IMG/VR virus record: IMGVR_UViG_3300016471_001002
Location: 128,001 to 192,000 of that record
DNA from: a virus
Lineage: Duplodnaviria > Caudoviricetes
Length of the DNA stretch: 64,000 nucleotides
Reading direction: 5' to 3' (one strand)
Part shown: piece after piece, positions 1-16,604 of the stretch
Layout: every line of letters begins with the position of its first letter
Position numbering within the stretch: position 1 is the first letter of the stretch
The notes under the pieces: generated by a model
The model's input: only the letters and a program-made list of their open reading frames with translations
Database searches by the model: none
Told to the model about the DNA's origin: nothing
Made by a program: the position numbers and the translations under genes

Positions 1-80
1 GAGTGTGATTGTATCGTTTTCTGGAACGAAGATTTCATTCCTTTCATATGGGAAAACCTAACACTCCTCTCGGAGGTACC

Positions 81-272
81 ATGAAACGGGGTGATCTGGT
101 AAAAATCACCCATCAAAAAACAGGAGAGGGTGAGGTGGTGGTGTGTTACAAACCGGAGGTAATCAGGTGTTTCAATCACTATGGTTCTTATCATGGAATC
201 CAGATGATCAATTCCAACGGAACCATTGTTTGTTACCCGGTGGATCGTTGGAGTTTTGAGGTGATCCGGTGA
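81..272 (+). CDS. small SH3/KOW-like protein
   Basis: ATG at 81 after GGAGG; MKRGDLVKI start typical of the paralog family. Confidence 0.7.
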   Translation: MKRGDLVKITHQKTGEGEVVVCYKPEVIRCFNHYGSYHGIQMINSNGTIVCYPVDRWSFEVIR

Positions 273-472
273 GAGTTGGAGATCTAGTTCGTTTCCGAAC
301 CGGGAGGAAACTAATCACCAGGGATATCACCTGGGATACAGGATTGATACTTGAGATATTCCTCGATGATTTTGATGGGGGAGATAAGTGCAAAATTCTG
401 GATTCCAGTGGTAGAATTAAATGGATTCGTTCCCATGGAACCGAGGTATTGAACCACAATGAAACCTGGTGA
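269..472 (+). CDS. small SH3/KOW-like protein
   Basis: VGDLVRF...KILDSSGRIKW; overlapping start/stop. Confidence 0.7.
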   Translation: MRVGDLVRFRTGRKLITRDITWDTGLILEIFLDDFDGGDKCKILDSSGRIKWIRSHGTEVLNHNETW

Positions 473-707
473 TATGGTTAGTGTGAAGGATGGTGATAAA
501 GGTAACACCTACTGGTTATACCATCCTGAATCCCCAATTACCATTAACCTCATCCCCACCGATATTCGGTTTGGATTCTCAGATACCGGTTTGATATTGG
601 AATCCCATGTGAACACTGGGATGTACCCTTACGCAACCTTCCTCAAGATTCTCACCCCTCGGGGAATCGGTTGGGCAAATGAGAATTGGGTGGAGGTTCT
701 ACTGTGA
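459..707 (+). CDS. small SH3-like protein
   Basis: MKPGDMVSV...KILTPRGIGWANENWVEV. Confidence 0.75.
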   Translation: MKPGDMVSVKDGDKGNTYWLYHPESPITINLIPTDIRFGFSDTGLILESHVNTGMYPYATFLKILTPRGIGWANENWVEVLL

Positions 708-973
708 AACCTGGATCACAAGTTCGTTTAATTCCTGAGTTGGAAGGTAACGAGGATTACAAGATCCTCTGGGATGATCCACCGGATTTCACTTCAATCT
801 ACAGGAAGAACCACACCGGGAGGTTCCGTTACACCGAGGTTGGAATGGTTCTTGAACAAAGATATGTTTCCGATGATAACCTACCTCTTCACGTTCAAAC
901 CACCTGGATCAAGGTTCTATGTTCCTCAGGAATCGGTTGGATTAAAAGATGTGATCTGGAGTTGGTGAGATGA
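704..973 (+). CDS. small SH3-like protein
   Basis: GTG start overlapping upstream stop; KPGSQVRL...KVLCSSGIGWIKRCDLELV. Confidence 0.75.
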   Translation: MKPGSQVRLIPELEGNEDYKILWDDPPDFTSIYRKNHTGRFRYTEVGMVLEQRYVSDDNLPLHVQTTWIKVLCSSGIGWIKRCDLELVR

Positions 974-1176
974 AGATCGGAAATCTTATTCGAATCACTC
1001 GGTTCTTCAAGGATTGGAAGATCAACACCACCACCGGTGTTCTACTACATTTTTGCCCCGTGGAACCAATCAAGGATACCCATAAAAAATCTTTCAATAT
1101 TCGGATGTTGGAAACCAACGGGGAAATTCAGGATTTTATTCTGGTTCCGGAGGATGGGATTGAGGTGTTGGGGTGA
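970..1176 (+). CDS. small SH3/KOW-like protein
   Basis: MKIGNLIRI; translationally coupled. Confidence 0.65.
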   Translation: MKIGNLIRITRFFKDWKINTTTGVLLHFCPVEPIKDTHKKSFNIRMLETNGEIQDFILVPEDGIEVLG

Positions 1177-1370
1177 GAAAACCAGGTGATATGGTTCGAA
1201 TCTCCTCCAAAACCGATGGTGATATTGATGGAAAACTTGCCACCGTTATCGAGCATGTGGATGAGAACCTCCGTTCCGGGAGGATGTGTTACACCAAGGT
1301 TTTCCTCATGATTTCCGGGGTTCCTGTTTTTAGGTACCTCTGCCCGGATTCACTGGAGTTGGTGAGATGA
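1173..1370 (+). CDS. small SH3/KOW-like protein
   Basis: KPGDMVRI...DSLELVR. Confidence 0.7.
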   Translation: MRKPGDMVRISSKTDGDIDGKLATVIEHVDENLRSGRMCYTKVFLMISGVPVFRYLCPDSLELVR

Positions 1371-1594
1371 AAAATAGAACACTTTTATCTCTAGGTGATC
1401 CAGTTATTTGTACCCCTTTCAAATGGGAAAACAATCCTGAAGTGGATTCTCCACCGTTTGTGGGGATGTGGATGGGGAGTAGAAGGAATGAATGGAATCC
1501 ATCCGAATATAATGTTCTCGGCCCGGATGGGTTGGTTTGGTTGTGGAGTAACCGTTGGGCGGTGGAGAGGATCAATGAAACCGAACCTCGGTGA
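1367..1594 (+). CDS. small SH3/KOW-like protein
   Basis: LGDPVIC...YNVLGPDGLVW. Confidence 0.65.
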   Translation: MKNRTLLSLGDPVICTPFKWENNPEVDSPPFVGMWMGSRRNEWNPSEYNVLGPDGLVWLWSNRWAVERINETEPR

Positions 1595-1784
1595 GTTGTG
1601 GATGGTGAGTGATACCGTTAGGGTAACCGTTGGAAACAAGGTTGCAACTTTCCGCCTATCCGGGCCGGGTTTGGTGGTGAAAATCCATGAGAACCGCGAT
1701 GAATACGGAGATTATTACACCGTGTTCTGGGGTGGAAAAACATCGGAACTATTCCGGGATAATTTTGTGGAGAGGATATCTTGA
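1575..1784 (+). CDS. small SH3/KOW-like protein
   Basis: ATG 1575 after GGAG; GPGLVVKI...YTVFWGG. Confidence 0.65.
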   Translation: MKPNLGELWMVSDTVRVTVGNKVATFRLSGPGLVVKIHENRDEYGDYYTVFWGGKTSELFRDNFVERIS

Positions 1785-1981
1785 AATTATCTCCTGGAAA
1801 TCTAATCAGAATCTATCTCCTACCACACCGAGATGAGTTACGGAACGGTGGGATTGTTGTTGGGAAATCCAATGAATTCGGTTCTGATTTCTATGATGTT
1901 CTGGAACTTGGAACCGGGCGGATGATTTATGTTCCAGTGAACAGTATCGGGAAGAAGTATGAGATTGAGGTGTTTGGGTGA
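1781..1981 (+). CDS. small SH3/KOW-like protein
   Basis: PGNLIRI...GIVV...YDVLE. Confidence 0.65.
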   Translation: MKLSPGNLIRIYLLPHRDELRNGGIVVGKSNEFGSDFYDVLELGTGRMIYVPVNSIGKKYEIEVFG

Positions 1982-2241
1982 GTAAATTTAACCCCGGTGA
2001 TTCGGTTCGGATCAGATCTGATCCAAATCACCCAACGGATCAACATCGAATTTACGATTTCCCGGAGAAGATCCGCTGGGCTGGAGAATCCATAGTTCCT
2101 CGGAGTTTCATCGGTAAGGTTCCGGGTGGTTCAATTGGAATCGTGGTGGAGATAAAAGAGGAACAGTGTAAGGTTCTGTTTTTCGGTGGTGAGGTTTTCG
2201 GATGGGTGAGTGAGAACAAATTAGTTGGGGAGGCAGAGTGA
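1978..2241 (+). CDS. small SH3-like protein
   Basis: FNPGDSVRI...KVLFFGGEVFGWVSENKL. Confidence 0.75.
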   Translation: MSKFNPGDSVRIRSDPNHPTDQHRIYDFPEKIRWAGESIVPRSFIGKVPGGSIGIVVEIKEEQCKVLFFGGEVFGWVSENKLVGEAE

Positions 2242-2257
2242 ATCTAGGAAAACTTTT

Positions 2258-3151
2258 TCAACCTTCCCGTTGAAGTTTTTCTAACCTTTTCTTTTCCCGC
2301 CCTAATCTCTGTTTTTCCTTCACCATTGCTCTATATTCAGGATTTTCCCACTGTTTCTTTCTTATTTCACTCATCTTTTTCCTGTGCTCAGGATCCTCCC
2401 ACATTTTCTTACTCGATTCAGAAATCTTTTCTTTATACTCAGGATCCTCCCACTTTTTCTTGCTGGATTCAGAAATCTTTTCTCTATACTCAGGATCCTC
2501 CCACTTTTTTTTATGTGATTCTCTCATCTTTTCTCTATATTCAGGATTTTCCCACTGTTTCTTTACTGATTCGCTTAATTTTCCCCTGCGTTCAGGACCC
2601 TCCCACACCTTCTTTCTAGATTTACTCATCTTTTCCTTGTGCTCAGGATCCTCCCACATTTTCTTTTGAGTTTCGCTCATCTTTTTTCTTTGTTCAGGAT
2701 CTTCACACCTTTTTTTATGTGATTCACGCATCTTTTTTTTGAACATGGGATCTTCCCACATCTTCTTACTTTTTTCCTGATGTTTTTTTCTTTGTTCAGG
2801 ATCTTCGAGCCTTTTTTTATGTGATTCACTCATCTTTTTTTTAACTTCTTCAGTGTACTTGTATCCTGAAACACCATCTCCACCAAGGGTAAAATTCGCT
2901 CCACCTTTTCCATGATGAACATATGTTTGAAGTTCCCCAATGAGTTGAATCTCTTTCTCAAATGATTCTTGCTCACTGCGAGTTTCAAAAACAATTTCTC
3001 TGATGATCCCATGCTTGTTTTTGATTCTTGTGTGAAGATGATTTCTTTCTAGATCTTTAACTCTACTTTCATCACCTTTCCCAACGTAGAAGGGCTTTCT
3101 ATCATCACCTCTGAAATCAACATACACGAAGAATTTCTTCTCAATTTCCAT
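2258..3151 (-). CDS. GIY-YIG-type free-standing homing endonuclease with C-terminal ~14-aa helical repeats
   Basis: FFVYVD..KPFYVGKG..R...E...I...NFTLGGDG; repeats KKxWEDPEYREKMS. Confidence 0.8.
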   Translation of the reverse strand: MEIEKKFFVYVDFRGDDRKPFYVGKGDESRVKDLERNHLHTRIKNKHGIIREIVFETRSEQESFEKEIQLIGELQTYVHHGKGGANFTLGGDGVSGYKYTEEVKKKMSESHKKRLEDPEQRKKHQEKSKKMWEDPMFKKKMRESHKKRCEDPEQRKKMSETQKKMWEDPEHKEKMSKSRKKVWEGPERRGKLSESVKKQWENPEYREKMRESHKKKWEDPEYREKISESSKKKWEDPEYKEKISESSKKMWEDPEHRKKMSEIRKKQWENPEYRAMVKEKQRLGREKKRLEKLQREG

Positions 3152-3214
3152 ATCAATAAATATACTCTAAGTACCTAAAAAGATAACAAAAACAATGGTT
3201 TTTGATAGGTTTTA

Positions 3215-3243
3215 TGTAAATTTAAGGGATCATAGAGTAGAAA
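3215..3243 (+). promoter_or_regulatory. early-type promoter
   Basis: TGTAAA-N17-TAGAAA, matches recurring consensus. Confidence 0.5.
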
Positions 3244-3281
3244 ATTATAAGATTGAGAAGTTATAGTTTGTTCGGAGAAAA

Positions 3282-4922
3282 ATGAAAACCAGCAAAATTT
3301 TTTTGATCATATGTACCCTGGTTTCAGGGGCATTCCTTTCTTACCCGAAGATCCTCCGGTGGCAGGTAGAGAAAAGGTTACCAGGAGTTGAATTCACGGA
3401 TGTAAATCTAGAGTTGTTACCTTTCGTGCTCACCCTATCAGGGGTTACCTTCAACCGTGGGTGGATCTCCGGTGATCTGGAAAGTATAACCTCTGATTTC
3501 CGCGGTGAACATGTTGTTCTGAGGGGTGGAAACCTGACCGTGAACCTGGATGATAAACCAGAAGGGGATGATAAACCGGATGGGTTTACCGTTCAAAAGA
3601 GGGATATTCAACTAAGAAACCTTGGTGTGAAGGTATCCCACACGGGGCACAACATCACCATGGAAGGTGTTCGAACCGATGGCCCCAAGGTGTGTTTCTC
3701 CTCGGCCAGGTTGGAGGTTCCAAACATCACCACCGGGAACGGTTGTTTCAACCGGGAAGATGATAGTTTCACCGTGGGCCGGGCAGAAATGAAGTTGATG
3801 AAGTTCAGAGGTGCTGAGGTAAAGAACCTCACCGCAGAGAACATCACCTTCAACACCAAAACCAAGGTGGCCCAGGTGGATAAGGTAGGGGTTCAGGTAA
3901 CCTTCGAAGGCCAAGAATTCCTCATCGATTCTCACGGTGTGATGGCATCCAGAAAACCCGATACCATCAAGGTTGAATCACTAAAGGTAAAACATCCATG
4001 GTTGGCCGGGGATTGGTTGGAACTAGGAAAGGTGAGTGTTGGCCACGGAGACAGGTGGAGCCTCACCGTTGGGGGTTCCCACATCGGGGTTGAACCAAAA
4101 TCACTTACGATTTCAGGGGAGGAGGAATGCGGAACCTGGATCGATTCACTTCCGCCCAACCTGAAGATCGGCCCACTTTCAGGGGTGAAGATGACAGGTA
4201 AATCCAGTTTTTCCATCGGGTTCCGTCCCAAACCTACCTTCAACCTCAGGTCCGATTGCAGGGCCCGGTGTGATTCACTTCCAAACCTACGGAAGCCATT
4301 CCGCTACACGGCCTATGATCCCAAAGGAAAACCATTCGAGAGGGAGACCGGCCGAGGTACCAGAAGCTGGGTTTCATTGTTGATGACCGGAGATATGCCC
4401 CTGGCCGTAACCACCATGGAGGATCCTGGTTTCGAACATCACCGTGGATTCATTGTTCAGGCCTTCAGCAACAGTTTCCTGGATAACCTAAAACAAGGCC
4501 GTTTTCTCCGAGGTGGAAGTACCATCACAATGCAGTTGGCCAAGAACCTCTGGTTGACCCGAGAAAAAACCTTGGGTAGAAAGGTTCAGGAATTCTTCTT
4601 ATCTCAGGCCCTGGAATCTTGTTATTCCAAGGATGAGATCATGGAGTTGTACCTAAACGTTGTTGAATTTGGCCCTAATCAGTATGGAGTTGGAAACGGT
4701 TCCATGTATTGGTTCCACAAGGGCCCTGGTGAATTGGTACCAACCGAGGCATTTTGGTTGGCCAGTATCCTACCTCGGCCTAGTAGAACACAACCTCCAA
4801 CCGATTCTAGTTTGAAACACGTGGAAGGTTTGATGAAACGTTTGGCCGAGGATGGCCGTATTCCTAATTTCACGGATGATATGGTGGAACCCGAGGAAGT
4901 GCAAAACCCCGAGGAGCCATGA
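3282..4922 (+). CDS. membrane-anchored peptidoglycan glycosyltransferase (GT51 transglycosylase domain, no transpeptidase)
   Basis: N-terminal hydrophobic helix; EDxxFxxHxG, RGGSTITMQLAKNL, RKVQE, ELYLN motifs. Confidence 0.9.
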   Translation: MKTSKIFLIICTLVSGAFLSYPKILRWQVEKRLPGVEFTDVNLELLPFVLTLSGVTFNRGWISGDLESITSDFRGEHVVLRGGNLTVNLDDKPEGDDKPDGFTVQKRDIQLRNLGVKVSHTGHNITMEGVRTDGPKVCFSSARLEVPNITTGNGCFNREDDSFTVGRAEMKLMKFRGAEVKNLTAENITFNTKTKVAQVDKVGVQVTFEGQEFLIDSHGVMASRKPDTIKVESLKVKHPWLAGDWLELGKVSVGHGDRWSLTVGGSHIGVEPKSLTISGEEECGTWIDSLPPNLKIGPLSGVKMTGKSSFSIGFRPKPTFNLRSDCRARCDSLPNLRKPFRYTAYDPKGKPFERETGRGTRSWVSLLMTGDMPLAVTTMEDPGFEHHRGFIVQAFSNSFLDNLKQGRFLRGGSTITMQLAKNLWLTREKTLGRKVQEFFLSQALESCYSKDEIMELYLNVVEFGPNQYGVGNGSMYWFHKGPGELVPTEAFWLASILPRPSRTQPPTDSSLKHVEGLMKRLAEDGRIPNFTDDMVEPEEVQNPEEP

Positions 4923-4928
4923 TAGGAT

Positions 4929-5123
4929 GTGGTTATGGATGTTGGTGATTTGTGTTTTACCAATTTCTTTGGTGAACCACACCGAGCGGGGATAATCCTG
5001 AGAGTTGGGTGGAATTCCTATGGGATTGTATCCTACCTAACCCTCCTCCCTGATGGGAAACAGGTTTATTTCCGCCCGGAACAAATCATCCTCCCCGAGG
5101 AGTTTCAAAAATATCATGAGTGA
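4929..5123 (+). CDS. small SH3/KOW-like protein
   Basis: VGDLCF...AGIILRV. Confidence 0.65.
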   Translation: MVMDVGDLCFTNFFGEPHRAGIILRVGWNSYGIVSYLTLLPDGKQVYFRPEQIILPEEFQKYHE

Positions 5124-5758: not shown

Positions 5759-6081
5759 ATAAATCCCGTTATGAAATTCATCTTGATCCACCACTCGCAC
5801 CGGAACAAGGAATCACCAAGGAAAACCACCAGTTATTGGAATTGTTCTTCCTCGCACCACCTCACATTGGGGAATGGTTTCTAAAACTACCTGATGTTCA
5901 GGATAGAATGGTGGTTAACTTCACCGATTCCAAGTACCACCCGGATTCCTACCGGGAAATGATTGTGGAGCTCCTGGAGGAAATGAACCGAAACCGGTGC
6001 GGTGAGTTTCCAGAGGATCTAAAGGAAGTCATGAAGATCCTAAAGGTTGGTGAGGATGTGCAAAGTTCCGCGGGAGGATGA
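5755..6081 (+). CDS. hypothetical protein
   Basis: coupled ORF in operon. Confidence 0.6.
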   Translation: MNKSRYEIHLDPPLAPEQGITKENHQLLELFFLAPPHIGEWFLKLPDVQDRMVVNFTDSKYHPDSYREMIVELLEEMNRNRCGEFPEDLKEVMKILKVGEDVQSSAGG

Positions 6082-6087
6082 TAAGGT
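6059..6087 (+). promoter_or_regulatory. early-type promoter with TTCCGCGG spacer (copy 1)
   Basis: TGCAAA-gttccgcgggaggatga-TAAGGT. Confidence 0.65.
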
Positions 6088-6093
6088 GGAACC

Positions 6094-6315
6094 ATGAGCA
6101 ACCCCAAGAACATCAATGATGTGATTCATGATCTCGATGTGTTGATCATGGATCTTCAAAAAATTCATGATGAACACTGGATCAAGAGCACCGCAAAGGG
6201 AACCACATCCAAGAGGATCTTAAGGGTTCTTTCTATCCTCAACACCCAGTTCCAGGAACTTGATGATCTTGAAATTCTGGTGAATGATGAGATGAAGGTG
6301 GAGGAGAGCAAGTGA
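6094..6315 (+). CDS. hypothetical helical protein
   Basis: ORF directly after promoter. Confidence 0.6.
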   Translation: MSNPKNINDVIHDLDVLIMDLQKIHDEHWIKSTAKGTTSKRILRVLSILNTQFQELDDLEILVNDEMKVEESK

Positions 6316-6775: not shown

Positions 6776-6963
6776 AGAAATCAAAATCAAAGTTTTGTTC
6801 CAATTGCGGTGATCTGATTCCTGAAGGAAAGGAATTCATCGAGTTCAAAGGTTCATACTTTCACGATGATAAGGTAACCTGCATCGGAAACCTAAAGGTT
6901 ACGGTTGAAACCCTCAGGAGAAAGTTGATCGAGATCAATTCGATCACCAACGATATCCCATGA
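6772..6963 (+). CDS. small Zn-finger-like protein
   Basis: CSNCG...H....C. Confidence 0.55.
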   Translation: MKKSKSKFCSNCGDLIPEGKEFIEFKGSYFHDDKVTCIGNLKVTVETLRRKLIEINSITNDIP

Positions 6964-7463
6964 AAATCAATCAAGATCTTGTAACCAAAACCTTCCAGTG
7001 TAGGAATGGAACCTCTGGGTTGTACCATGATCCAGGTGATGTGAAGTTTATCCAAGAGGTTCTACAGAGAAACCTTGGTGTTTTTGTTAGTGAATCCGAG
7101 GTGATCGATTTTTGGCACTGGAGATCCAACGAATGGGATTCTTCTTTTCTCTCAATCAATTACCATGATGATGTTGAAATCCTGGAATGGTTCCAAAAAT
7201 TCATTGAATTTGTTGGGGTTGAACCTGATGAGGATGAAGAAAATATTCCTCAACCATCTCCAAGGGTTGGTGTGAAGGTTGTGGTGAAGGATGAGGAAGG
7301 AATCCCATGGGAGATCGAATTGGATCCTGATTATCACTCACAACTTATCCAGGATATTGAATCCCAGATTCCAGAAAATAGTGAAGGTGGATCCGTTCGA
7401 TATTCCTTGGAATATGATCCCAAAAAGATTTGGAACATGAGAAAGTTGGATGAGAAGAAATAA
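6960..7463 (+). CDS. hypothetical protein (putative target of endonuclease cassette 2)
   Basis: 167-aa coupled ORF; internal segment duplicated at 8526-8600. Confidence 0.65.
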   Translation: MKINQDLVTKTFQCRNGTSGLYHDPGDVKFIQEVLQRNLGVFVSESEVIDFWHWRSNEWDSSFLSINYHDDVEILEWFQKFIEFVGVEPDEDEENIPQPSPRVGVKVVVKDEEGIPWEIELDPDYHSQLIQDIESQIPENSEGGSVRYSLEYDPKKIWNMRKLDEKK

Positions 7464-7483: not shown

Positions 7484-8449
7484 TCAATTAGAATCTTTTC
7501 CCTCAGCTTCTTTTTTAAGCTTGTTTAATCTTCTTGTTTCCCAACACTTTTTAAGGTGTTCTTTCTTTTGTTCAGGGGTTCTTTTGCTATGAGCTTCTTT
7601 CATTTTTTTGATTCTTAAATCTCTTATATCAGGATCTTCCCACTGTTTTTTTGCGATCTGTTTGGATCTTTTTTTATATTCAGGTTTGTTTACTGCTTTC
7701 TTTATTGATTCTCTAGTTTTTTCTTTGTAATCAGGATCTTCCCATCTTTTCTTATTTAACTCACTCATCTTTTCTCTGAGCTCAGGATTTTCCCAGGTTT
7801 TCTTCAAAGAATCACTCAACGTTTTTCTAAGCTCAGGATCTTCCCACGCCTTTTTCATAGAAGCTTTTCGAGATGATTTATGCTCAGGATCTTCCCAAAT
7901 CTCTTTTGTTTTTTCACTTATGTTTTTTCTGTACTCTTCATCTTTTCTTGCTTCTATTTGTTTCTCTCTAAATTCATAATTTTCCCATGCTTTTTTTGTT
8001 AAATCAGAAAACTTCGTTCCAAGTTTTTCTCTCGAATCAGAATCATTCCAAATCTCTTGCATTGATTTTTTAATTGATTCACTAGTTTTTCTCTTGTATT
8101 CTTCATCTTCCCATATTGATTTTACGGAGTTTCTTATTTTTTCTTTGCTTTCTTCACTTATCCCAACACAACCTTCTCCACCAAAGGTAAAATTTGATCC
8201 ACCTTTTCCAAAATCAACATGTGTTTCAAGCTCTTGGATAAGCTCAATTTCTCTTTTAAAAGCTTCATTTTCATCAACATGTTCAGAATCAATTTTTCTG
8301 ATTATCCCATGCTTGTTTTTTATTCTTTCATGAAGTTGATTTCGATTTAGATCTTTAATTCTCGATTTAGTTCCTTTTCCTACATAAAAAGGTTTTCCAT
8401 CATCTTCACGATAATCCACATAAACGTAAAACATTCCTCTTATCTCCAT
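7484..8449 (-). CDS. GIY-YIG-type homing endonuclease with helical repeats
   Basis: FYVYVDYREDDGKPFYVGKG; paralog of 2258 and 13366; start placed by ATATTTAT-N4-ATG. Confidence 0.8.
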   Translation of the reverse strand: MEIRGMFYVYVDYREDDGKPFYVGKGTKSRIKDLNRNQLHERIKNKHGIIRKIDSEHVDENEAFKREIELIQELETHVDFGKGGSNFTFGGEGCVGISEESKEKIRNSVKSIWEDEEYKRKTSESIKKSMQEIWNDSDSREKLGTKFSDLTKKAWENYEFREKQIEARKDEEYRKNISEKTKEIWEDPEHKSSRKASMKKAWEDPELRKTLSDSLKKTWENPELREKMSELNKKRWEDPDYKEKTRESIKKAVNKPEYKKRSKQIAKKQWEDPDIRDLRIKKMKEAHSKRTPEQKKEHLKKCWETRRLNKLKKEAEGKDSN

Positions 8450-8489
8450 TACCATAAATATAAGTAAAGATAAGAAAAAAGATTCTTTT

Positions 8490-10216: not shown

Positions 10217-10217
10217 G

Positions 10218-10246
10218 TGTAAAGTTCCGCGGGGTGATGATATACT
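10218..10246 (+). promoter_or_regulatory. early-type promoter with TTCCGCGG spacer (copy 2)
   Basis: TGTAAA-gttccgcggggtgatga-TATACT. Confidence 0.7.
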
Positions 10247-10252
10247 AGAACC

Positions 10253-10618
10253 ATGGAAACCAAGAAAACCCCTAAGAAACCAAAACACAAACACTTCTGG
10301 GAGTTTCATTCCTGGGTAAAAGGCCCAAAGAGCCCAAAGGATAACTACCAAACCTGGGATTTCGAGGTTGAATACAGGTGTTCCTGTGGGAAGAACCAAA
10401 AGGTTGAACCCAGTGAGGAAGAACTGAAACAATACATCAAGGATTCCATGTGTGATTACTGCGGTGAACTTCATGAACAACATGAGGATCCTCGTGAATG
10501 TATCACGGTTCTTCGAACCAAGGTGGTTGGGCTAGAGGATCGCCTGGAAAAACTAGAGGATCAAATGGATTCCATCCGAAGGGTGTTCAGGGATTCCGTT
10601 GATCGAGATCGATGGTGA
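10253..10618 (+). CDS. Cys/His-rich hypothetical protein with coiled-coil end
   Basis: CSCG, CDYCG..H. Confidence 0.6.
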   Translation: METKKTPKKPKHKHFWEFHSWVKGPKSPKDNYQTWDFEVEYRCSCGKNQKVEPSEEELKQYIKDSMCDYCGELHEQHEDPRECITVLRTKVVGLEDRLEKLEDQMDSIRRVFRDSVDRDRW

Positions 10619-10621
10619 ACC

Positions 10622-10879: not shown

Positions 10880-10882
10880 ATC

Positions 10883-11071: not shown

Positions 11072-11247
11072 ATCATGAAACCCGAGAAAAACTTCTTCTT
11101 CTCTGCCAAAAATTCATACGAGATAATGAGATAGGTTGTTCCGAATCCATCTACCAATCGGATAGGATCATCCTAAATTCACCGGATTTCATTCGTGAAA
11201 TTTGTGATCTGGTTGGTTACCATCAATTCGAGGAGGATGAAAAGTGA
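11068..11247 (+). CDS. hypothetical protein (59 aa, below ORF-track cutoff)
   Basis: TTG start overlapping upstream stop; LCQKFIRDNEIGCSESIYQSD; fills the gap exactly. Confidence 0.6.
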   Translation: MNHETREKLLLLCQKFIRDNEIGCSESIYQSDRIILNSPDFIREICDLVGYHQFEEDEK

Positions 11248-11959: not shown

Positions 11960-12183
11960 AAAACGAATCACTTGATTTTTTGGTGGAGAAGGGAGATATT
12001 GTTTTTTACACCTATGAAAATCTGGATGAGGAAGGTAATCCAGGTGAAGGTGAGTTTAGAAACACCGAGAGGTTAACCCTTCTATTTCCAAGTGGAAATA
12101 ATTTGATCCTGGATACGTGTTGTTCCGGTATGAATCAAAACACTGTTTTGATGATGGAATTATTGAAAGTAGATCCAAAGTGA
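11956..12183 (+). CDS. hypothetical protein
   Basis: coupled ORF. Confidence 0.55.
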   Translation: MKNESLDFLVEKGDIVFYTYENLDEEGNPGEGEFRNTERLTLLFPSGNNLILDTCCSGMNQNTVLMMELLKVDPK

Positions 12184-12452
12184 AACTCGAGCAACTTGGG
12201 AGGGATACCAACGGAGGTATTTCCTCCCTTCCACAAATTAAATCAGGTAAGAACCGTGGTTTTAGAAAACCTGAGGTTGGTGGTAATTGGTTGTGTACCG
12301 GTGGTTATACCCACGATTCTCGGTGGGATGAGAAGAATGCCCACGGCTCATGGCTCACTTCCATGGAGAAAATCGGGTTCCGCACCGGAAAATATGAACT
12401 GGATGGGGTGGTTAACCTATATGTTTGGGTGCAAAATTCCGCGGGGGGATGA
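12180..12452 (+). CDS. hypothetical protein
   Basis: GTG start overlapping upstream stop. Confidence 0.55.
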   Translation: MKLEQLGRDTNGGISSLPQIKSGKNRGFRKPEVGGNWLCTGGYTHDSRWDEKNAHGSWLTSMEKIGFRTGKYELDGVVNLYVWVQNSAGG

Positions 12453-12458
12453 TAGAAT
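12430..12458 (+). promoter_or_regulatory. early-type promoter with TTCCGCGG spacer (copy 3)
   Basis: TGCAAA-attccgcggggggatga-TAGAAT. Confidence 0.7.
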
Positions 12459-12464
12459 AAAAAT

Positions 12465-12752
12465 ATGAACACCACACCAACCCGAATCGATCTGGTTCAA
12501 CTCTGGATGGAAACCCACTTCAAGGGGATTCCCTGTGCTGTTTTCTTCGATCCTCTAGGGGATGGTGATAGAATCTCACTGTTCATCGATAAACTCGGAA
12601 TCTCCTGCGGAACAGGTATGGGGCAAATCATCAACTCCAACTTTCTCATCCTACCATCACCCAACCCAGATTCACTAGTGAACAACCTCAAACAAGACAC
12701 CTGGGGCTTCGCAATGAGCTGGAATGGAAACAATTTCACGAGTGAGAATTAA
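12465..12752 (+). CDS. hypothetical protein
   Basis: ORF after promoter. Confidence 0.6.
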   Translation: MNTTPTRIDLVQLWMETHFKGIPCAVFFDPLGDGDRISLFIDKLGISCGTGMGQIINSNFLILPSPNPDSLVNNLKQDTWGFAMSWNGNNFTSEN

Positions 12753-12768
12753 TAGATATTTAACCTCC

Positions 12769-13068
12769 ATGAAGATATCAATCAATCAACTCCGCAGGAT
12801 TATCAAGGAAGAAGTTCAAACACTCACCGAGGCAGGAGATCCAAACAAAATCAAGTTTGAAGAAATCAAACAATCACTGGTTGATTTCCTCCAATCCAAC
12901 GGTGAACTGGTTTCAGGTGATGTTGTTCTACAAGGAAATACCATCAAGTTCCACATCTATGATCAAGATGCCCCAGATCTTCAATCACAACCCAGAGTTA
13001 AGATAACCCTGGAACTAGAACCCAGCATGGCACAACTTCGAGATGAAAATCCAGAGGTTTTCCTGTGA
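12769..13068 (+). CDS. MKIT-tag family protein
   Basis: MKISINQLRRIIKEEV; TATTTA 6 nt upstream of ATG. Confidence 0.7.
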   Translation: MKISINQLRRIIKEEVQTLTEAGDPNKIKFEEIKQSLVDFLQSNGELVSGDVVLQGNTIKFHIYDQDAPDLQSQPRVKITLELEPSMAQLRDENPEVFL

Positions 13069-13084
13069 GAATTAAAGGATAAAA

Positions 13085-13393
13085 ATGTCGGGAGGAGCCA
13101 TTCACCCACAATACCTGTACTACCAGGTGAACCAATTCGCGGATGAACTTGAGAACCGAATCGAAAACAACAATGTTCCGGATGAATACGGTTATGCCCC
13201 AAACCTCCCGGATGATATCCTCGATTACCTAAAACTCCAGGTTTCCAACCTAAGGAAAATCTCCGAGGTGATGAGAGCAACGGACTATTTATTTGCTGGT
13301 GACCATGGACCCGAAAATTTTCTAAAGATCATTGAGAAAATTGAAAAAAGTATTCAGGCTCTACATCAGGTATTTGACTCAATTTCCTGTTGA
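13085..13393 (+). CDS. conserved phage hypothetical (MSGG... family), putative target of endonuclease cassette 3
   Basis: 3' end overlaps endonuclease stop; tail homolog at 14438. Confidence 0.7.
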   Translation: MSGGAIHPQYLYYQVNQFADELENRIENNNVPDEYGYAPNLPDDILDYLKLQVSNLRKISEVMRATDYLFAGDHGPENFLKIIEKIEKSIQALHQVFDSISC

Positions 13394-14340
13394 AGTTTTT
13401 TTAACCTTCTGGTTTCCCACCCCTTTTTAAGTCTCTCGCTTCTTTGCTCGGGTGTGAGTTCAGCTAATTTCGATTTTATAGATTCACTTGTTTTTTTCTT
13501 ATGTTCAGGATCCTCCCACAATTTTTTTCTTATTTCGCTCATTTTTTCTCTATATTCAGGATCCTCCCACGATTTTTTTCTTATTTCACTCATTTTTTCT
13601 TTGAACTCAGGATCCTCCCATTTCTTTTTGTTGGCTTCGCTTTGTTTTCTTTTGTATTCAGGATCGTTTCGTATTTTTTTCATTTTGTGATCCGGATTTT
13701 CCCAGGATTTTCTAATAGATTCTTTATGCTTTTCCTTGATCTCAGGTTTTTTTAGAGAATCTTTGATAGCTTCGCTGTGCTTCTTTAATAATTCAGGATC
13801 TTCCCAAACTTTTTGTTGTTGTTCACTGCATTTTTTTCTGAGTTCAGGGTCACTCCAAGTTTTCTTAAATGATTCACTCATCCTTTCCTTGAATTCAGGA
13901 TTCTCCCATTTCTTTCTTTTTGTTGCCTTCATTCTTTCTTTTCTATCCTGGTTTTCCCAAGATTTTTTTTGTAATTCACTCATCCTTTCTTTGAACTCAG
14001 GATTTTCCCACTTCTTTTTACAGGCCTCTCTTTGTTCTTCGTTCCATTTGTAGCCTGTTGTTCCATCTCCGCCAAGGGTAAAATTGGCACCACCTTCACC
14101 AAAATCAACATGGGTTTTTAGTTCCTGGATAAGTTCGACTTCTTTATCAAATGCCTCTTGTTGATTGATGGTTTCAAATAGGACTTTCCTAACCATGCCA
14201 TGCTTATTTTTGATTTTGGCGTGAAGAGGATTTCTTTTTGATTTTCTCACTCTACAATCTACACCTTTTCCAACATAAAAAGGTCTTCCATCATCCTCTC
14301 GATAATCAACATAAACAAAGAATTTTTGTTCGGTTTCCAT
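13366..14340 (-). CDS. GIY-YIG-type homing endonuclease with helical repeats
   Basis: FFVYVDYREDDGRPFYVGKG; WEDPE repeats; ATATTTAT-N4-ATG start. Confidence 0.8.
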   Translation of the reverse strand: METEQKFFVYVDYREDDGRPFYVGKGVDCRVRKSKRNPLHAKIKNKHGMVRKVLFETINQQEAFDKEVELIQELKTHVDFGEGGANFTLGGDGTTGYKWNEEQREACKKKWENPEFKERMSELQKKSWENQDRKERMKATKRKKWENPEFKERMSESFKKTWSDPELRKKCSEQQQKVWEDPELLKKHSEAIKDSLKKPEIKEKHKESIRKSWENPDHKMKKIRNDPEYKRKQSEANKKKWEDPEFKEKMSEIRKKSWEDPEYREKMSEIRKKLWEDPEHKKKTSESIKSKLAELTPEQRSERLKKGWETRRLKKLQQEIESNT

Positions 14341-14437
14341 ATCCATAAATATGGAAAAAGATTATAAAAAGCCATATTTTTATATGGTTTCGTGTAAATT
14401 TTCAGATTTTTATATACTGTTTCTACTAATAAAAAGT

Positions 14438-14512
14438 ATGAAGAATATTTCTGGCGATCATAACGAGTTAAGCTTCATGAAAACCATCGGGAAAATCGAG
14501 GCTGAAAAATAA
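14438..14512 (+). pseudogene. 24-aa mini-ORF, displaced native 3' end of 13085 gene
   Basis: SGDHNELSFMKTIGKIE vs AGDHGPENFLKIIEKIE (9/17 identical). Confidence 0.65.
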
Positions 14513-14515
14513 ATC

Positions 14516-14731
14516 ATGGAACTCCGCATCGGTGATCAATGCTCAATTTGGAACGGAAATTCATCCATCTCAGATTCACGAAACTGGCTCATCGGCATCG
14601 TGATGAAAAAGAAGAACCACAAATACTGGAATGAAACTCGATACCAAGTTTTCTGGCACGATTTGTTAAAAGATACTACGTGGTACACTGCGAATGAGAT
14701 CAAATTAGATGAAACTCGGTTCTCTCGTTAA
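14516..14731 (+). CDS. small SH3/KOW-like protein
   Basis: LRIGDQC...IGIV...YQVFW. Confidence 0.7.
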   Translation: MELRIGDQCSIWNGNSSISDSRNWLIGIVMKKKNHKYWNETRYQVFWHDLLKDTTWYTANEIKLDETRFSR

Positions 14732-14900
14732 AATCCACCCAATCGATCATCTTTCACGTGAATTCCGCGGTGAACTTGGAACTCTATTAGATCTAGAGAT
14801 TCACAACTATCTCTCAGAGAAATTCTATTACGCAAAAGTGATGCTCCTCTCAGGGAAGATTATCTTCACCTCCCAAAATTCGCTGGAATTTATCAGTTAA
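14709..14900 (+). CDS. small SH3/KOW-like protein
   Basis: MKLGSLVKI...LGTLLD...AKVML. Confidence 0.7.
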   Translation: MKLGSLVKIHPIDHLSREFRGELGTLLDLEIHNYLSEKFYYAKVMLLSGKIIFTSQNSLEFIS

Positions 14901-14965
14901 AGGTAATAATTACCCCTATGAAGATCACAGTTTCACAACTCCGTAAAATCATCAAGGAAGAAGTT
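14862..14965 (+). repeat. ~104-bp imperfect direct repeat, copy 1 (copy 2 at 15305-15408)
   Basis: atcttcacctcccaaaattc...taataattacccctATGaagat...gaagaagt; offset 443. Confidence 0.85.
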
Positions 14966-15187
14966 TCTAGAATTATTGAAGAGAATATCAACATTGATCG
15001 AATGGTGCTTGATGAACACTATGAGGTTTATCAGGAAACCACTCGTAGTGGTGCAATACTCTACAAGGTGAAGTTCACTGCACCAAAGGATCTTCCACGT
15101 TTCATTTGGGTGAATCCAAATGGTTCCTGGATTGGCAGGAATTCTAAAATGCTAAACGATGATATCGTTGCGAGTGGAAATTTTTGA
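14918..15187 (+). CDS. MKIT-tag family protein
   Basis: MKITVSQLRKIIKEEV; TAATTA-N5-ATG. Confidence 0.75.
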   Translation: MKITVSQLRKIIKEEVSRIIEENINIDRMVLDEHYEVYQETTRSGAILYKVKFTAPKDLPRFIWVNPNGSWIGRNSKMLNDDIVASGNF

Positions 15188-15271
15188 AATATGATGAAGA
15201 TAGATTCCGTAATGCCATCCAAAAGATTGAAGGCAAACTAACCTTTTTAAGGGTGATGAATAATTAATCCC

Positions 15272-15343
15272 ATGAAACTCACAACGGCACAACTCAAACA
15301 AATCATCTTCACCTCCCAAAATTCTCTGGAATTTATCAATTAA
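15272..15343 (+). pseudogene. chimeric mini-ORF (tag fused to tail of 14709 gene)
   Basis: MKLTTAQLKQII+FTSQNSLEFIN*. Confidence 0.6.
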
Positions 15344-15408
15344 AGGTAATAATTACCCCTATGAAGATTACCGTATCGCAACTCCGTAAGATCATCCGTG
15401 AAGAAGTG
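15305..15408 (+). repeat. ~104-bp imperfect direct repeat, copy 2
   Basis: see copy 1. Confidence 0.85.
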
Positions 15409-16107
15409 CAGAGGAACATCTCTGAAGCCAAGTTCAACGTGGGTGATAAGGTAGAGGAAAAAGGAACCGATTCCGGTTGGTGGGAGGTTCTAGAATTAAT
15501 TCCCGATAATAGAACAGGTAAAACCGTTGCCAAATTACAAATGTTTCAACCTGTGGGTGGTAGAACACCAATCACACACGTAACAACGGATAAACTTGCT
15601 AAAGTTAGAGAATCTCTATCACATCCAGGTTCTTCACCCCTGAAGGATGGTGGTGTTGTTAACCGTGAATCCGGAGAGATTCTGGTTATGGATAGTGTTC
15701 CTCCTCAATACCTCGATCACATTGAGGTTGATGAGATGGGTTATACCACACTTCCAAATGATAAGTTTGAGGAACTTCGTGGTGAATTGAAGGGATTATC
15801 CGCAGGGAAACCAAAGAAACAACGATTAGCACCCTTCCAACTCAACAAGGGATCCAAGGGTTTCAATGATTACATCCGGGATGTTGATAGGGATATGCCA
15901 ACCTCATGGGATTCTCCAGATCCTCAGGATGTTCACGATGAATTTCTTAAGTTAAGGGATTATGATGGTGAAGTTCCACTCAAAATGCTAGCGGCCGGCT
16001 TAGGGGTAGAACCCAACCAAATCGATTGGAACGGAACCGGTTTAAGGGTGATGAACGGTGTTGTTACTGAACTCATCGGCGATACCCCCTACAGAACCAA
16101 TAGGTGA
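15361..16107 (+). CDS. MKIT-tag protein with KOW-like domain and possible C-terminal HTH
   Basis: MKITVSQLRKIIREEV; AKFNVGDKV; VPLKMLAAGLGVEP. Confidence 0.7.
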   Translation: MKITVSQLRKIIREEVQRNISEAKFNVGDKVEEKGTDSGWWEVLELIPDNRTGKTVAKLQMFQPVGGRTPITHVTTDKLAKVRESLSHPGSSPLKDGGVVNRESGEILVMDSVPPQYLDHIEVDEMGYTTLPNDKFEELRGELKGLSAGKPKKQRLAPFQLNKGSKGFNDYIRDVDRDMPTSWDSPDPQDVHDEFLKLRDYDGEVPLKMLAAGLGVEPNQIDWNGTGLRVMNGVVTELIGDTPYRTNR

Positions 16108-16119
16108 TCATCAGCACAA

Positions 16120-16150
16120 AAGGTAACCCACATTTAACTTTCGTGCAAAA
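16120..16150 (+). repeat. 31-bp direct repeat (second copy 16598-16628), overlaps -35 of promoter 16144-16172
   Basis: aaggtaacccacattta(a/c)ctttcgtgca(a/c)aa. Confidence 0.8.
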
Positions 16151-16178
16151 TACCTCATGGCGATGTTAAAATACCTCC

Positions 16179-16403
16179 ATGGCTCCACAACTCGGTGATC
16201 TAATCCACATCATAAAAGATACCCACGGCTACCCAGATAACTGGATCCGCGGCACAGATCCAATCAGATTCCCAAACGGCTCCACTGGCATCCTACTGGA
16301 TATCAAACCTTCATCCACAGATGAACCACGAACCTTCTACAAGGTTGCCACCCCACAAGGCACGGTATCCATCTTCGAAGGCTTCACAGAACTCATCAAA
16401 TAA
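16179..16403 (+). CDS. small SH3-like protein
   Basis: LGDLIHI...GILLD...YKVATPQG; after TGCAAA-N17-TAAAAT. Confidence 0.75.
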   Translation: MAPQLGDLIHIIKDTHGYPDNWIRGTDPIRFPNGSTGILLDIKPSSTDEPRTFYKVATPQGTVSIFEGFTELIK

Positions 16404-16415
16404 CGGATCAACACC

Positions 16416-16604
16416 ATGAACATCGGCGATCTTGTTCACGTAAGAAAATCTAACGTGTTTCACCAACTCGGCCTCGGGATCATCCTAGAACTTCACGCCG
16501 AACCCGATCGAACCTACTGCGATGTGTTCTTCCCAGACAGCGGAGAAACCTACGGGATCTTCGATAGAGATCTAGAAAAACTATCGGATCAACACGGAAG
16601 GTAA
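16416..16604 (+). CDS. small SH3/KOW-like protein
   Basis: MNIGDLVHV...GIILE...CDVFF. Confidence 0.75.
   Translation: MNIGDLVHVRKSNVFHQLGLGIILELHAEPDRTYCDVFFPDSGETYGIFDRDLEKLSDQHGR

What the first reader, a model, noticed from the sequence alone, without database searches (positions are those of the whole stretch)
1..16535. A 16.5-kb block almost completely purged of the 3-bp palindrome GWC (GAC/GTC)
Seen (manual scan): there is no GAC or GTC in 1-2595, 6031-12695 or 14286-16535. Only about 20 sites occur in the whole 16.5 kb. Eight of them lie in the host-like GT51 gene, mostly across codon junctions such as ATG-ACN, and nine lie in the apparently recent endonuclease-3 cassette (13283-14285). 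Beyond ~16.9 kb the triplets occur roughly every 40-60 bp. The purge depends on position, not gene family: SH3 paralogs and MKIT-tag genes are free of sites inside the block but full of them at 27-28 kb and 56 kb. It covers genes on both strands and all codon positions, while GATC, GAWTC, CCGG and GTAC remain present. Established: T5 first-step-transfer DNA enters first and is poor in restriction sites. Inference: this is a first-injected or pre-early segment selected to survive a nuclease or modifier that reads a very short GWC core. That enzyme could be a host defence, or a phage host-DNA-degrading enzyme active before the rest of the genome enters. A target this short would be unlike ordinary 4-6 bp R-M sites.
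Basis: partly seen in the sequence, partly recalled or inferred. Interest (0 to 1): 0.9.

Follow-up and report, generated by a model that had tools for sequence, protein, structure and literature searches.

The report
GAC/GTC-free gene island in huge phages
A 20-kb stretch of small accessory genes inside a huge T4-like freshwater phage has been almost completely cleared of the three-letter words GAC and GTC, at a cost to its proteins; related phages show the same clearance, so something unidentified reads this very short DNA word only in this part of the genome.

Summary
The GAC/GTC-free block runs from 3,966 bases before the window to window 16,535 (20.5 kb). It holds 30 sites where about 480 are expected; the rest of the 211-kb phage contig is normal. 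Codon usage and protein composition do not explain it. GpC is also depleted, to 0.38x, alanine is 3.5-fold rarer, and Met-Thr/Trp-Thr dipeptides that force a site are avoided.

At least five related huge-phage genomes and 15 further metagenome loci carry the same bounded purge. Diverged orthologues stay site-free, so selection is ongoing. The same gene families carry normal site numbers outside the block. Recent insertions hold most residual sites.

The block is a T4-type hypervariable island of small cassettes with sigma-70-like leaderless promoters and Seg-like homing endonucleases.

It is not excluded. No phage methylase, TET, TGT or T7-type primase was found.

Best reading: position-specific DNA-level selection against an unidentified short-motif nuclease, nickase or modifier. 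Other first-stage notes on this genome had already flagged this stretch.

The parts
1..16535 (.). Window part of the GAC/GTC-free, GpC-poor block. The whole block is genome 124,034-144,535, so it begins 3,966 bases before the window.
   Evidence: 21 sites in the window part and 30 in the whole block, against about 480 expected. Null models.
16536..16921 (.). Right transition zone: 3 sites in about 390 bp, then normal density.
   Evidence: Site positions 16536, 16676, 16831, then dense from 16921. Contigs from two other metagenomes lose homology at 16,595.
16110..16181 (+). Stem-loop followed by a sigma-70-like extended -10 promoter and a leaderless ATG, resembling a T4-type PeSL cassette junction.
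   Evidence: Repeat families D4 and D14, motif search, promoter regex.
16596..16670 (+). Second copy of the stem-loop motif (GGAAGGTAACCCACATTTACCTTTC), then a 7-bp hairpin with a TTTT tail. It marks the right edge of the block.
   Evidence: Fold -26.9 kcal/mol, z = -2.8. The consensus terminator scan did not call it.
388..423 (+). Cassette promoter of the type GTGCAAA-N-TGnTAnnnT-N-ATG.
   Evidence: Regex hits.
4899..4941 (+). Cassette promoter of the same type.
6058..6096 (+). Cassette promoter of the same type.
10217..10255 (+). Cassette promoter of the same type.
12429..12467 (+). Cassette promoter of the same type.
2258..3151 (-). Seg-like GIY-YIG homing endonuclease paralogue 1, with 17-residue tandem repeats. 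1 GWC site.
   Evidence: phrog_314, E 1.6e-20. tblastn hits to T4-like Seg-like genes. 51-nt repeats.
7484..8455 (-). Seg-like homing endonuclease paralogue 2. 0 GWC sites.
   Evidence: phrog_314, E 4.4e-10.
13366..14346 (-). Seg-like homing endonuclease paralogue 3. 6 GWC sites, so the least purged; probably the most recent arrival.
   Evidence: phrog_314, E 8.9e-20. Site list.
3282..4922 (+). 545-residue protein with a C-terminal GT51 transglycosylase domain. It belongs to a conserved huge-phage gene family. 8 GWC sites.
   Evidence: PF00912, E 1.4e-41. 1,177 homologues of the same length on phage contigs of up to 421 kb. Orthologues outside a block carry 17-88 sites.
6960..7463 (+). Acidic 167-residue cassette protein (pI 4.5), the most widely shared block gene. 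0 GWC sites.
   Evidence: Homologues in G001 and in 16 metagenome loci, of which 15 are purged. pI.
15361..16107 (+). 248-residue protein with an N-terminal MKITVSQLRKIIREEV tag, present in all four genomes compared. 0 GWC sites.

Best explanation
The block is a T4-type hyperplastic island. It is an array of small accessory genes, most of them short single-gene cassettes, some with a sigma-70-like leaderless promoter, and it is interspersed with Seg-like homing endonucleases. Continuing purifying selection keeps its DNA free of GAC/GTC and poor in GpC. The most likely reason is that each GAC/GTC is a target for a factor that reads a very short word in the DNA (G-W-C on the duplex, or one of the two triplets on either strand). 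That factor could be a frequent-cutting nuclease or nickase, or a short-context DNA modifier, and it could come from the host or be delivered by the phage. A hit matters only in this island because these genes must work from the single incoming genome copy before protection, repair or replication is in place. Shown: the purge, its position dependence, its conservation, the ongoing selection and the protein-level cost. Inferred: that the signal is read at DNA level, that the genes are early, and the nature and origin of the factor.
For: Size of the effect: 30 against 480 sites in G000; pooled over four genomes 70 against 1,368. A fifth genome (L099) and 15 of 16 further metagenome loci are purged too.

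Not codon usage: observed 33 against 372 +/- 16 and 215 +/- 10 under two protein-preserving null models.

Protein-level cost: Met-Thr plus Trp-Thr occur 3 times against 15.6 expected in the block, and 122 against 124 in the rest of the genome. Alanine is 1.9% against 6.7%.

Position, not family: paralogues carry 0-2.5 sites/kb inside and 19-27/kb outside. The GT51 orthologue carries 8-13 sites inside blocks and 17-88 outside.

Ongoing selection: block orthologues are only 57-94% identical in DNA, and 32% of their conserved codons have changed synonymously, yet they hold 0-2 sites.

Recent insertions hold the residual sites: a TnpB/IS605 element in G001 carries 26 sites in 1.2 kb, and the third endonuclease in G000 carries 6.

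DNA-level reading: depletion is alike for GAC and GTC and for each GpC-containing triplet and its reverse complement on the sense strand. It covers minus-strand genes and intergenic DNA. A central W is the natural degeneracy of a palindromic duplex site.

Early or accessory character: small cassettes; sigma-70-like extended -10 promoters 6 nt before the ATG; gene content that turns over between relatives; capsid-targeting-like tags.

Precedent for very short targets (literature): chlorovirus nickases such as Nt.CviPII (PMC7019647, PMC3017599) and phage T-dioxygenases that prefer NTC or NTG (PMC13229309).
Against: No nuclease, methylase or modifier with this specificity was identified. There is no C5, N4/N6, TET/JBP or TGT gene in G000, nor in the complete relative G001 apart from a weak Dam-like hit.

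The GC-rich cassette array at genome 205-211 kb uses the same promoter type but is rich in GWC. Promoter class alone therefore does not define the purged set.

The left edge lies between two adjacent, same-strand paralogues. That would also fit a recombination junction.

If the genome enters all at once, as expected for a T4-type terminase, a double-strand cutter would kill the phage wherever it cuts. The factor would then have to make non-lethal lesions (nicks, adducts, roadblocks), which is an added assumption.

Expression timing was not measured.
Confidence: 0.4

Rival explanations
1. First reader's model. The block is a first-injected (T5-like first-step-transfer) segment, exposed alone in the cell while a GWC-reading nuclease is active.
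For: The size (7-20 kb, about 6% of an estimated 325-kb genome) and the content (small sigma-70-driven genes) resemble T5 pre-early DNA. The edges are sharp. Three of five contigs end inside the block, which could hint at a physical end.
Against: The terminase is T4 gp17-type. The block is internal in a complete circular assembly. Its neighbours differ between relatives. Depth is not doubled. T5's first-step DNA shows no comparable purge. Contig ends inside the block are equally explained by population-level cassette variation, seen as many joints and short contigs.
Confidence: 0.15
2. Modification-free island. The phage modifies its own DNA after replication in a short context (T in GTC, C in GpC). 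The island avoids those contexts so that it stays unmodified, for example so that host RNA polymerase can read it or modification-dependent restriction cannot see it.
For: Metavirome phages are known to make short-context post-replicative modifications: T-dioxygenases that prefer NTC or NTG (PMC13229309), and TET pathways for which I recall GpC-specific methylases (PMC8256090; the GpC detail rests on my own knowledge and was not read here). This genome carries ThyA-like, ThyX, Tmk, TK, sugar-nucleotide and glycosyltransferase genes.
Against: Neither G000 nor the complete G001 has a TET/JBP, C5-methylase or TGT gene. Pool-level substitution would modify the island as well.
Confidence: 0.15
3. 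Warfare between phages. GAC/GTC is the cleavage motif of the Seg-like GIY-YIG homing endonucleases that live in this island, or of another phage nuclease. Purging it makes the island immune, and lets it survive and spread by recombination in mixed infections.
For: One to three Seg-like endonucleases lie in the blocks of G000, G002, G003 and L099. Some island genes are 71-92% identical between phages whose terminases are 64% identical. Island cassettes occur at 85-99% identity and in shuffled order in metagenomes from other studies, while the flank does not. The island's position in the genome varies. GIY-YIG domains are known to need a short cleavage motif (I-TevI, CNNNG; my own knowledge).
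Against: The homing enzymes characterised so far are reported to cut near a long binding site and not across 20 kb (own knowledge). G001 showed no detectable homologue of the G000 endonucleases in the BLAST table. The flank that is not shared is a tail-fibre-like gene, which is expected to vary anyway.
Confidence: 0.12
4. RNA-level avoidance. Early transcripts avoid the cleavage motif of an endoribonuclease, such as a toxin-antitoxin RNase, that is active until a phage inhibitor accumulates.
For: It would explain region-specificity without ordered DNA entry. Short RNase motifs are known.
Against: GAC and GUC are both purged, which would be an odd A/U degeneracy for RNA recognition. Reverse-complement symmetry holds for all GpC-containing triplets. 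Intergenic DNA and minus-strand genes are purged alike. Cassettes with the same promoter at 205-211 kb are not purged.
Confidence: 0.05
5. Small-molecule DNA binders or crosslinkers with 2-3-bp preference (GpC intercalators, 5'-GNC crosslinkers) block transcription of the single incoming template.
For: The motif is the size of a drug-binding site. GpC and G-N-C are classic sites (own knowledge).
Against: The apparent sparing of GGCC disappears under a first-order model inside the block. GGC/GCC is far less depleted than GWC, unlike what I recall for GNC crosslinkers (own knowledge).
Confidence: 0.05
6. Passive relic or mutational bias. The island came from a donor with genome-wide avoidance, or it is shaped by context-specific mutation, with no present selection.
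For: Its codon usage differs from most of the genome (C-ending codons 0.52-0.61 against 0.2-0.35). The left edge is sharp and lies between paralogues.
Against: Orthologues with substantial synonymous divergence (32% of conserved codons changed) remain site-free. Forced dipeptides are avoided. GT51 is purged only where it lies in an island. None of the 20-odd contigs examined is GWC-free throughout. The amino-acid shifts do not match a simple deamination signature.
Confidence: 0.03

Closest known systems
Phage T5 first-step-transfer (pre-early) DNA
   Same: A block of about 10-20 kb of small genes driven by host-type promoters. The T5 literature reports it as poor in some restriction sites (per the finding; PMC10644984 and preprint 10.1101/866236 were listed but not read here).
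   Different: T5's block lies in a terminal repeat at a fixed genome end and has an injection stop signal. Here the terminase is T4-like, the block is internal, and its depth is not doubled. T5's block shows no near-complete 3-mer purge.
Hyperplastic regions of T4-type phages, shuffled through promoter-early/stem-loop (PeSL) cassettes (PMC2839356, PMC4122927)
   Same: T4-like core genes, arrays of small ORFs with variable content, repeated stem-loop-plus-early-promoter junctions, and Seg-like endonucleases.
   Different: As far as my searches show, no oligonucleotide purge has been described for such regions. Another cassette array in this same genome is not purged.
Restriction-site avoidance in the early-injected region of T7-like phages (PMC12455610)
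   Same: The presence or absence of a motif in one early region decides exposure to a DNA-targeting defence.
   Different: There the targets are bipartite Type I sites and entry is ordered. Here the target is 3 bp and ordered entry is unsupported.
Chlorovirus frequent cutters and nickases with 2-4-base sites, such as Nt.CviPII (CCD) and CviJI (RGCY) (PMC7019647, PMC3017599)
   Same: Virus-associated nucleases with very short targets exist. According to the literature, as I recall it (not read here), they degrade host DNA early in infection.
   Different: Chloroviruses protect themselves by genome-wide methylation with cognate methylases. No such methylase or nuclease was found here, and protection is by regional motif loss.
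Post-replicative short-context phage DNA hypermodification (PMC13229309, PMC8256090)
   Same: Sequence contexts of 2-3 bases (NTC, NTG, GpC) define where phage DNA is modified.
   Different: No TET/JBP or C5-methylase homologue occurs in these genomes. No regional avoidance has been reported for those systems.

Membership tests
T5-type first-step-transfer / pre-early segment | Lies in a long terminal repeat at a fixed physical genome end. | tested here: not met
   The block is internal in the 211-kb contig and in a complete circular assembly. K-mer depth is about 4.5 in the block and about 5.4 outside (low coverage, contig-level depth). True termini were not mapped.
T5-type first-step-transfer / pre-early segment | Terminase and packaging type that give fixed ends. 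| tested here: not met
   The large terminase is T4 gp17-like (PF03237; best cultured hits 41%, then T4-like cyano- and coliphages). That this type means headful packaging is inferred from established knowledge.
T5-type first-step-transfer / pre-early segment | Injection stop signal: a large non-coding repeat region at the inner edge. | tested here: not met
   The edges are ordinary intergenic spacers of 15-120 bp carrying a promoter or stem-loop.
T5-type first-step-transfer / pre-early segment | Small genes behind host-type promoters. | tested here: met
   58 ORFs, most of 50-170 residues; sigma-70-like extended -10 promoters.
T4-type hyperplastic region with PeSL cassettes | T4-like core genome. 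| tested here: met
   T4-like terminase, Seg-like GIY-YIG genes, a weak DnaG/gp61-type primase zinc ribbon in G001.
T4-type hyperplastic region with PeSL cassettes | Small ORFs whose content varies between relatives, flanked by repeated promoter or stem-loop motifs. | tested here: met
   Few orthologues are shared between G000 and G001-G003. The promoter occurs 8 times within the block, plus one copy at its left edge and one about 1.3 kb upstream. Stem-loop-plus-promoter composites. Cassette-skipping joints in other metagenomes.
Classical restriction-site avoidance (Type II R-M) | Target is a 4-8-bp site. | tested here: not met
   All eight NGWC/GWCN contexts are depleted to 0.01-0.08x, so the minimal motif is 3 bp.
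Classical restriction-site avoidance (Type II R-M) | Avoidance is genome-wide. | tested here: not met
   It is confined to one 7-20-kb block per genome.
Virus frequent-cutter plus cognate methylase (chlorovirus type) | A cognate DNA methyltransferase is encoded. | tested here: not met
   PF00145, PF01555 and PF02086 are absent from G000. PF00145 is absent from G001-G003. G001 has only a weak D12-type hit.
Virus frequent-cutter plus cognate methylase (chlorovirus type) | A nuclease with the matching short specificity. | not testable with these tools
   The candidates (clade-specific 176-residue HNH; Seg-like enzymes; tagged virion proteins) have unknown specificity.
Short-context post-replicative hypermodification (TET / 5mYOX pathways) | A TET/JBP-family dioxygenase, with a methylase for the cytosine pathway. 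| tested here: not met
   No PF12851 hit at E <= 0.05 in G000-G003. No C5 methylase.
T7-type primase recognition (5'-GTC-3') | gp4-type primase zinc ribbon. | tested here: not met
   PF08273 is absent from G000 and G001.

The most novel reading that the evidence does not exclude
A clade of T4-like huge freshwater phages is exposed to a DNA-acting factor with only 3 bp of specificity (GAC/GTC), and its action is confined in space or time to one 7-20-kb accessory-gene island. That would imply an unknown regional process: ordered or two-step genome entry in a T4-type phage, regionally targeted cleavage or modification, or a nuclease-proof gene island that spreads between phages.
Probability: 0.5. 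Interest if true: 0.9.

Novelty: new variant of a known kind. Interest (0 to 1): 0.8.

Why it matters
Motif avoidance is one of the few ways to read, from sequence alone, which enzymes a virus has to survive. Here the signal is extreme. A 3-bp word is lost by about 95% over 20 kb. The loss is paid for in protein sequence, it is sharply bounded, and selection maintains it in many uncultured huge phages. No known restriction, modification or primase system explains it.

Finding the agent would reveal one of three things: a new class of very-short-motif nuclease or modifier, which would also be of practical interest as an enzyme; an unexpected ordered-entry or regional-protection mechanism in T4-type phages; or a new kind of selfish, nuclease-proof gene island. 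It also gives a simple computable marker, a k-mer desert, for locating early or anti-defence islands in metagenomic phage genomes.

Tried and rejected
- **Codon-usage or amino-acid artefact:** rejected by two protein-preserving null models.
- **Assembly or sequencing artefact:** rejected. The same purge appears in independent JGI, ENA and Logan assemblies from several studies.
- **Donor with genome-wide avoidance:** every contig examined has normal flanks. More distant relatives G004-G007 (terminase 57% identical) and L100-L105 show no desert of any 2-5-mer apart from A-rich words in GC-rich patches.
- **Neighbours of the 609-residue flanking gene (L001-L033):** no purge within 10 kb, so this search led nowhere.
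- **Actinomycin-like GpC context rule (GGCC spared):** vanished under a first-order model.
- **Phage-encoded enzymes:** methylase, TET, TGT and T7-type primase were all absent.
- **PurZ (Z-genome) lead:** the 330-residue PurA-family protein keeps GD in its GDSGKGK motif and matches PurA far better than PurZ (E 6e-54 against 3e-17). It has no evident link to the motif.
- **Host identification through GT51:** failed, because the gene belongs to a phage family.
- **Structure of the 167-residue cassette protein:** the model was poor (pLDDT 68), so no fold search was made.
- **Termini and modification status:** only assembled contigs of older runs were available, so these could not be read.
- **Extending locus L119:** the record is not held.
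- **Literature searches:** none found a prior description of a regional 3-mer purge.

Full report
**1. The observation**

The window is bases 128,001-192,000 of a single 211,097-bp IMG/VR virus contig, judged about 65% complete. On the whole contig the site-poor stretch begins at 124,034 and ends at 144,535, which is 20.5 kb. It holds 30 sites against about 480 at the rate of the rest of the genome.

Every other 2-kb window of the contig is normal. The longest gap, 6,668 bp, is by far the strongest k-mer desert among all 2-5-mers (log10 E = -58).

The left edge is very sharp. One gene, 123,724-124,005, has 12 sites. The next gene, 15 bp further on and a paralogue on the same strand, has one. 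The right edge takes about 400 bp.

**2. It is not chance, codon usage or protein composition**

I kept every block protein and redrew synonymous codons from the genome's usage. That gives 372 +/- 16 sites against 33 observed. Keeping the block's own codon usage as well and only permuting synonymous codons still gives 215 +/- 10. All three codon phases are purged.

- GAC is 3% of Asp codons, against 31% elsewhere.
- GTC is 1% of Val codons, against 23% elsewhere. This is despite a general shift of the block towards C-ending codons.
- Dipeptides that force a site (Met-Thr, Trp-Thr) occur 3 times against 15.6 expected in the block, but 122 against 124 elsewhere.

A second, weaker signal goes with it. 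GpC is 0.38x (318 against 832) and alanine falls from 6.7% to 1.9%. Dipeptides that force GpC are also rare: 10 observed against 34 expected. The GpC-poor zone (121-146 kb) is a little wider than the GWC-free zone. Its apparent context dependence (GGCC spared) disappears under a first-order model.

Depletion is alike for GAC and GTC, and for each GpC-containing triplet and its reverse complement on the sense strand. It also covers minus-strand genes and spacers.

**3. Position, not gene family**

Paralogue families with members on both sides carry 0-2.5 sites/kb inside and 19-27/kb outside. MKIT-tagged genes behave the same way.

The GT51-domain gene is not host-like. It belongs to a family of more than 1,000 proteins of about 545 residues, encoded on phage contigs of up to 421 kb. 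Orthologues that lie outside any block carry 63-88 sites (L100, L101) or 17-34 sites (L102-L105). Those inside blocks carry 8 (this genome) and 13 (L099).

**4. Conservation and ongoing selection**

Homologues of block genes led to the following relatives.

- G001: a complete, circularly assembled 297,894-bp relative, with its block at 56,235-69,935.
- G002: block from contig start to 11,990.
- G003: block from contig start to 6,039.
- L099: a 254-kb ENA contig with the same left edge as G000.
- 16 metagenome loci, of which 15 are purged and one is intermediate.

Block lengths range from 7 kb (L115) to more than 18.5 kb (L119). Pooled over four genomes there are 70 sites against 1,368 expected. 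G000 and G001 are distant: their terminases are 64% identical and shared proteins average 57%.

Block orthologues are 57-94% identical in DNA, and 32% of their conserved codons have changed synonymously. Both copies still hold 0-2 sites. Selection against new sites is therefore continuing.

Recent arrivals are the exceptions. A TnpB/IS605 element in G001's block has a normal density of 26 sites in 1.2 kb. In G000, the third endonuclease gene and its neighbour hold 11 of the 30 residual sites.

More distant relatives have no desert of any kind. These are G004-G007 (terminase 57% identical) and the phages of L100-L105. The trait belongs to one sub-clade, or to the hosts of that sub-clade.

**5. 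What the block is**

It holds 58 ORFs, mostly 50-170 residues and on the plus strand, and many are SH3/KOW-like paralogues. It also holds three minus-strand Seg-like GIY-YIG homing endonucleases with 17-residue tandem repeats, the GT51 protein, and several proteins with an N-terminal MKITVSQLRxIIxEEV tag. That tag recalls T4 capsid-targeting sequences; the comparison rests on my own knowledge.

A promoter-like element, GTGCAAA-N13-TGnTAnnnT-N6-ATG, has a sigma-70-like extended -10 and predicts leaderless mRNA. It occurs 8 times within the block, once exactly at its left edge, and once about 1.3 kb upstream. At the right edge a 9-bp stem-loop precedes such a promoter twice.

Gene content turns over almost completely between relatives. 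Contigs from estuary, sediment and freshwater metagenomes of other studies carry block cassettes at 85-99% identity with cassette-sized deletions, and two of them lose homology at window 16,595.

Together with the T4-like terminase, this matches the hyperplastic regions of T4-type phages, which are shuffled through promoter/stem-loop cassettes (PMC2839356, PMC4122927).

**6.

A T5-like first-step-transfer segment should sit in a terminal repeat at a fixed end. The evidence here is as follows.

- The terminase is of the T4 gp17 type. From established knowledge this means headful packaging and permuted ends.
- The block is internal, also in the complete relative.
- It neighbours different core genes in G000, G001 and G002.
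- Contig-level k-mer depth in an independent sample is about 4.5 inside and about 5.4 outside, so it is not doubled.
- T5's own first-step DNA, compared with the next 40 kb, shows nothing stronger than a twofold loss of AGA/TCT.

Three of five contigs end inside the block. The strong population variation seen explains that as well as a physical end would. Ordered entry is therefore unsupported, but it is not excluded, because only assembled contigs of older runs were available.

**7. Searching for the agent**

- G000 has no C5, N4/N6 or D12 methylase. G001 has only a weak Dam-like hit.
- No TET/JBP and no TGT/DpdA gene was found.
- No T7-type primase zinc ribbon was found, which weakens the link to the T7 primase site GTC. 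G001 has a weak DnaG/gp61-type ribbon.
- A PurA-family enzyme that PHROGs labels PurZ-like is closer to PurA.
- Genes specific to the block-bearing clade but lying outside the block include ThyX, thymidylate kinase, a metallophosphoesterase, a 176-residue HNH endonuclease and an actin-like (Volactin-family) protein. None can be tied to the motif.

**8. Interpretation**

The data establish DNA-sequence-level purifying selection that is specific to this island. A W-centred 3-bp word, or equivalently one asymmetric triplet avoided on both strands, points to something that reads DNA rather than RNA or protein.

Suppose the genome enters all at once, as expected for a T4-type phage. Region-specific benefit then requires that hits elsewhere be tolerable. 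That fits nicks, adducts, bound proteins or modifications that block expression of genes needed from the single incoming template. It fits lethal double-strand cuts less well.

I therefore favour a short-motif nickase, nuclease or modifier of unknown origin that acts before protection or replication (confidence 0.4). This remains an inference.

The main counter-fact is that the GC-rich cassette array at 205-211 kb shares the promoter type but is rich in GWC.

The rivals are ordered entry, a modification-free island, immunity to the island's own homing endonucleases or to inter-phage nucleases, RNase avoidance, small-molecule ligands, and a passive relic. They are listed with their evidence in the Rival explanations section.

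**9. Novelty**

Motif avoidance in early or first-entering phage DNA is a known kind of phenomenon (T5, T7-like phages; PMC12455610). My literature searches and this scan's index returned no earlier case with all these features:

- a near-total purge of a 3-bp word;
- confined to an internal hyperplastic island of T4-type huge phages;
- strong enough to reshape protein composition;
- conserved across divergent genomes.

Other first-stage notes on this same genome had already seen the GAC/GTC and GpC loss.

Noticed in passing
genome 114,852-115,844 (L053:852-1844), 12 kb before the window: A 330-residue PurA-family adenylosuccinate synthetase that PHROGs labels PurZ-like. Its motif is GDSGKGK, and it is much closer to PurA (E 6e-54) than to solved PurZ (E 3e-17). 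A cupin gene lies next to it. Whether the phage makes 2-aminoadenine DNA is open.
   Followed up: partly
genome 76,248-77,252 (L107:16248-17252): An actin-like protein of the Volactin family (PF25216, E 7e-66). It is 82% identical in G001 and absent from the more distant relatives G004-G007. It may be a phage cytoskeletal element.
   Followed up: no
window 2269-2848, 7612-7936, 13437-14049: The three Seg-like homing endonuclease genes contain tandem 51-nt (17-residue) repeats, with up to 8 copies. These may form a repeat-type DNA-binding domain.
   Followed up: no
G001 63,651-64,832 (L041:3651-4832): A TnpB/IS605 OrfB-type gene (Cas12f-like TNB domain) is inserted in the relative's GWC-free block and has normal GWC density, so it is a recent insertion.
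   Followed up: partly
genome 205,400-211,097 (beyond the window) and window 388-16181: The same leaderless-type promoter, GTGCAAA-N13-TGnTAnnnT-N6-ATG, drives both the purged island and a GC-rich cassette array that is not purged.
   Followed up: partly
window 12769, 14918, 15361; 36897 and 56289-56753 (minus strand): An N-terminal tag, MKITVSQLRxIIxEEV, is shared by unrelated proteins. It looks like a T4 capsid-targeting sequence with an (I/L)xE cleavage motif, so these may be injected internal proteins.
   Followed up: partly
window 30203-31510 and 31779-33713: A fused GT2 glycosyltransferase/methyltransferase-domain protein (435 residues) lies next to a full-length PrkA-type AAA serine kinase (644 residues, 82-87% identical in relatives). 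In a relative (L102), SpoVR- and DUF444-family genes lie directly upstream of the PrkA homologue.
   Followed up: no
L116 (metagenome contig Ga0129333_10000401, 1-11,246): A more distant homologue of the 167-residue cassette gene sits in DNA with only intermediate GWC depletion (about 0.3x, graded). This may be an island being purged or decaying.
   Followed up: no
genome 87,726-89,302 and 66,993-68,242: The phage carries both a ThyA-family enzyme (333 residues) with thymidine kinase and a ThyX with thymidylate kinase. The ThyX/Tmk pair is specific to the block-bearing clade.
   Followed up: partly
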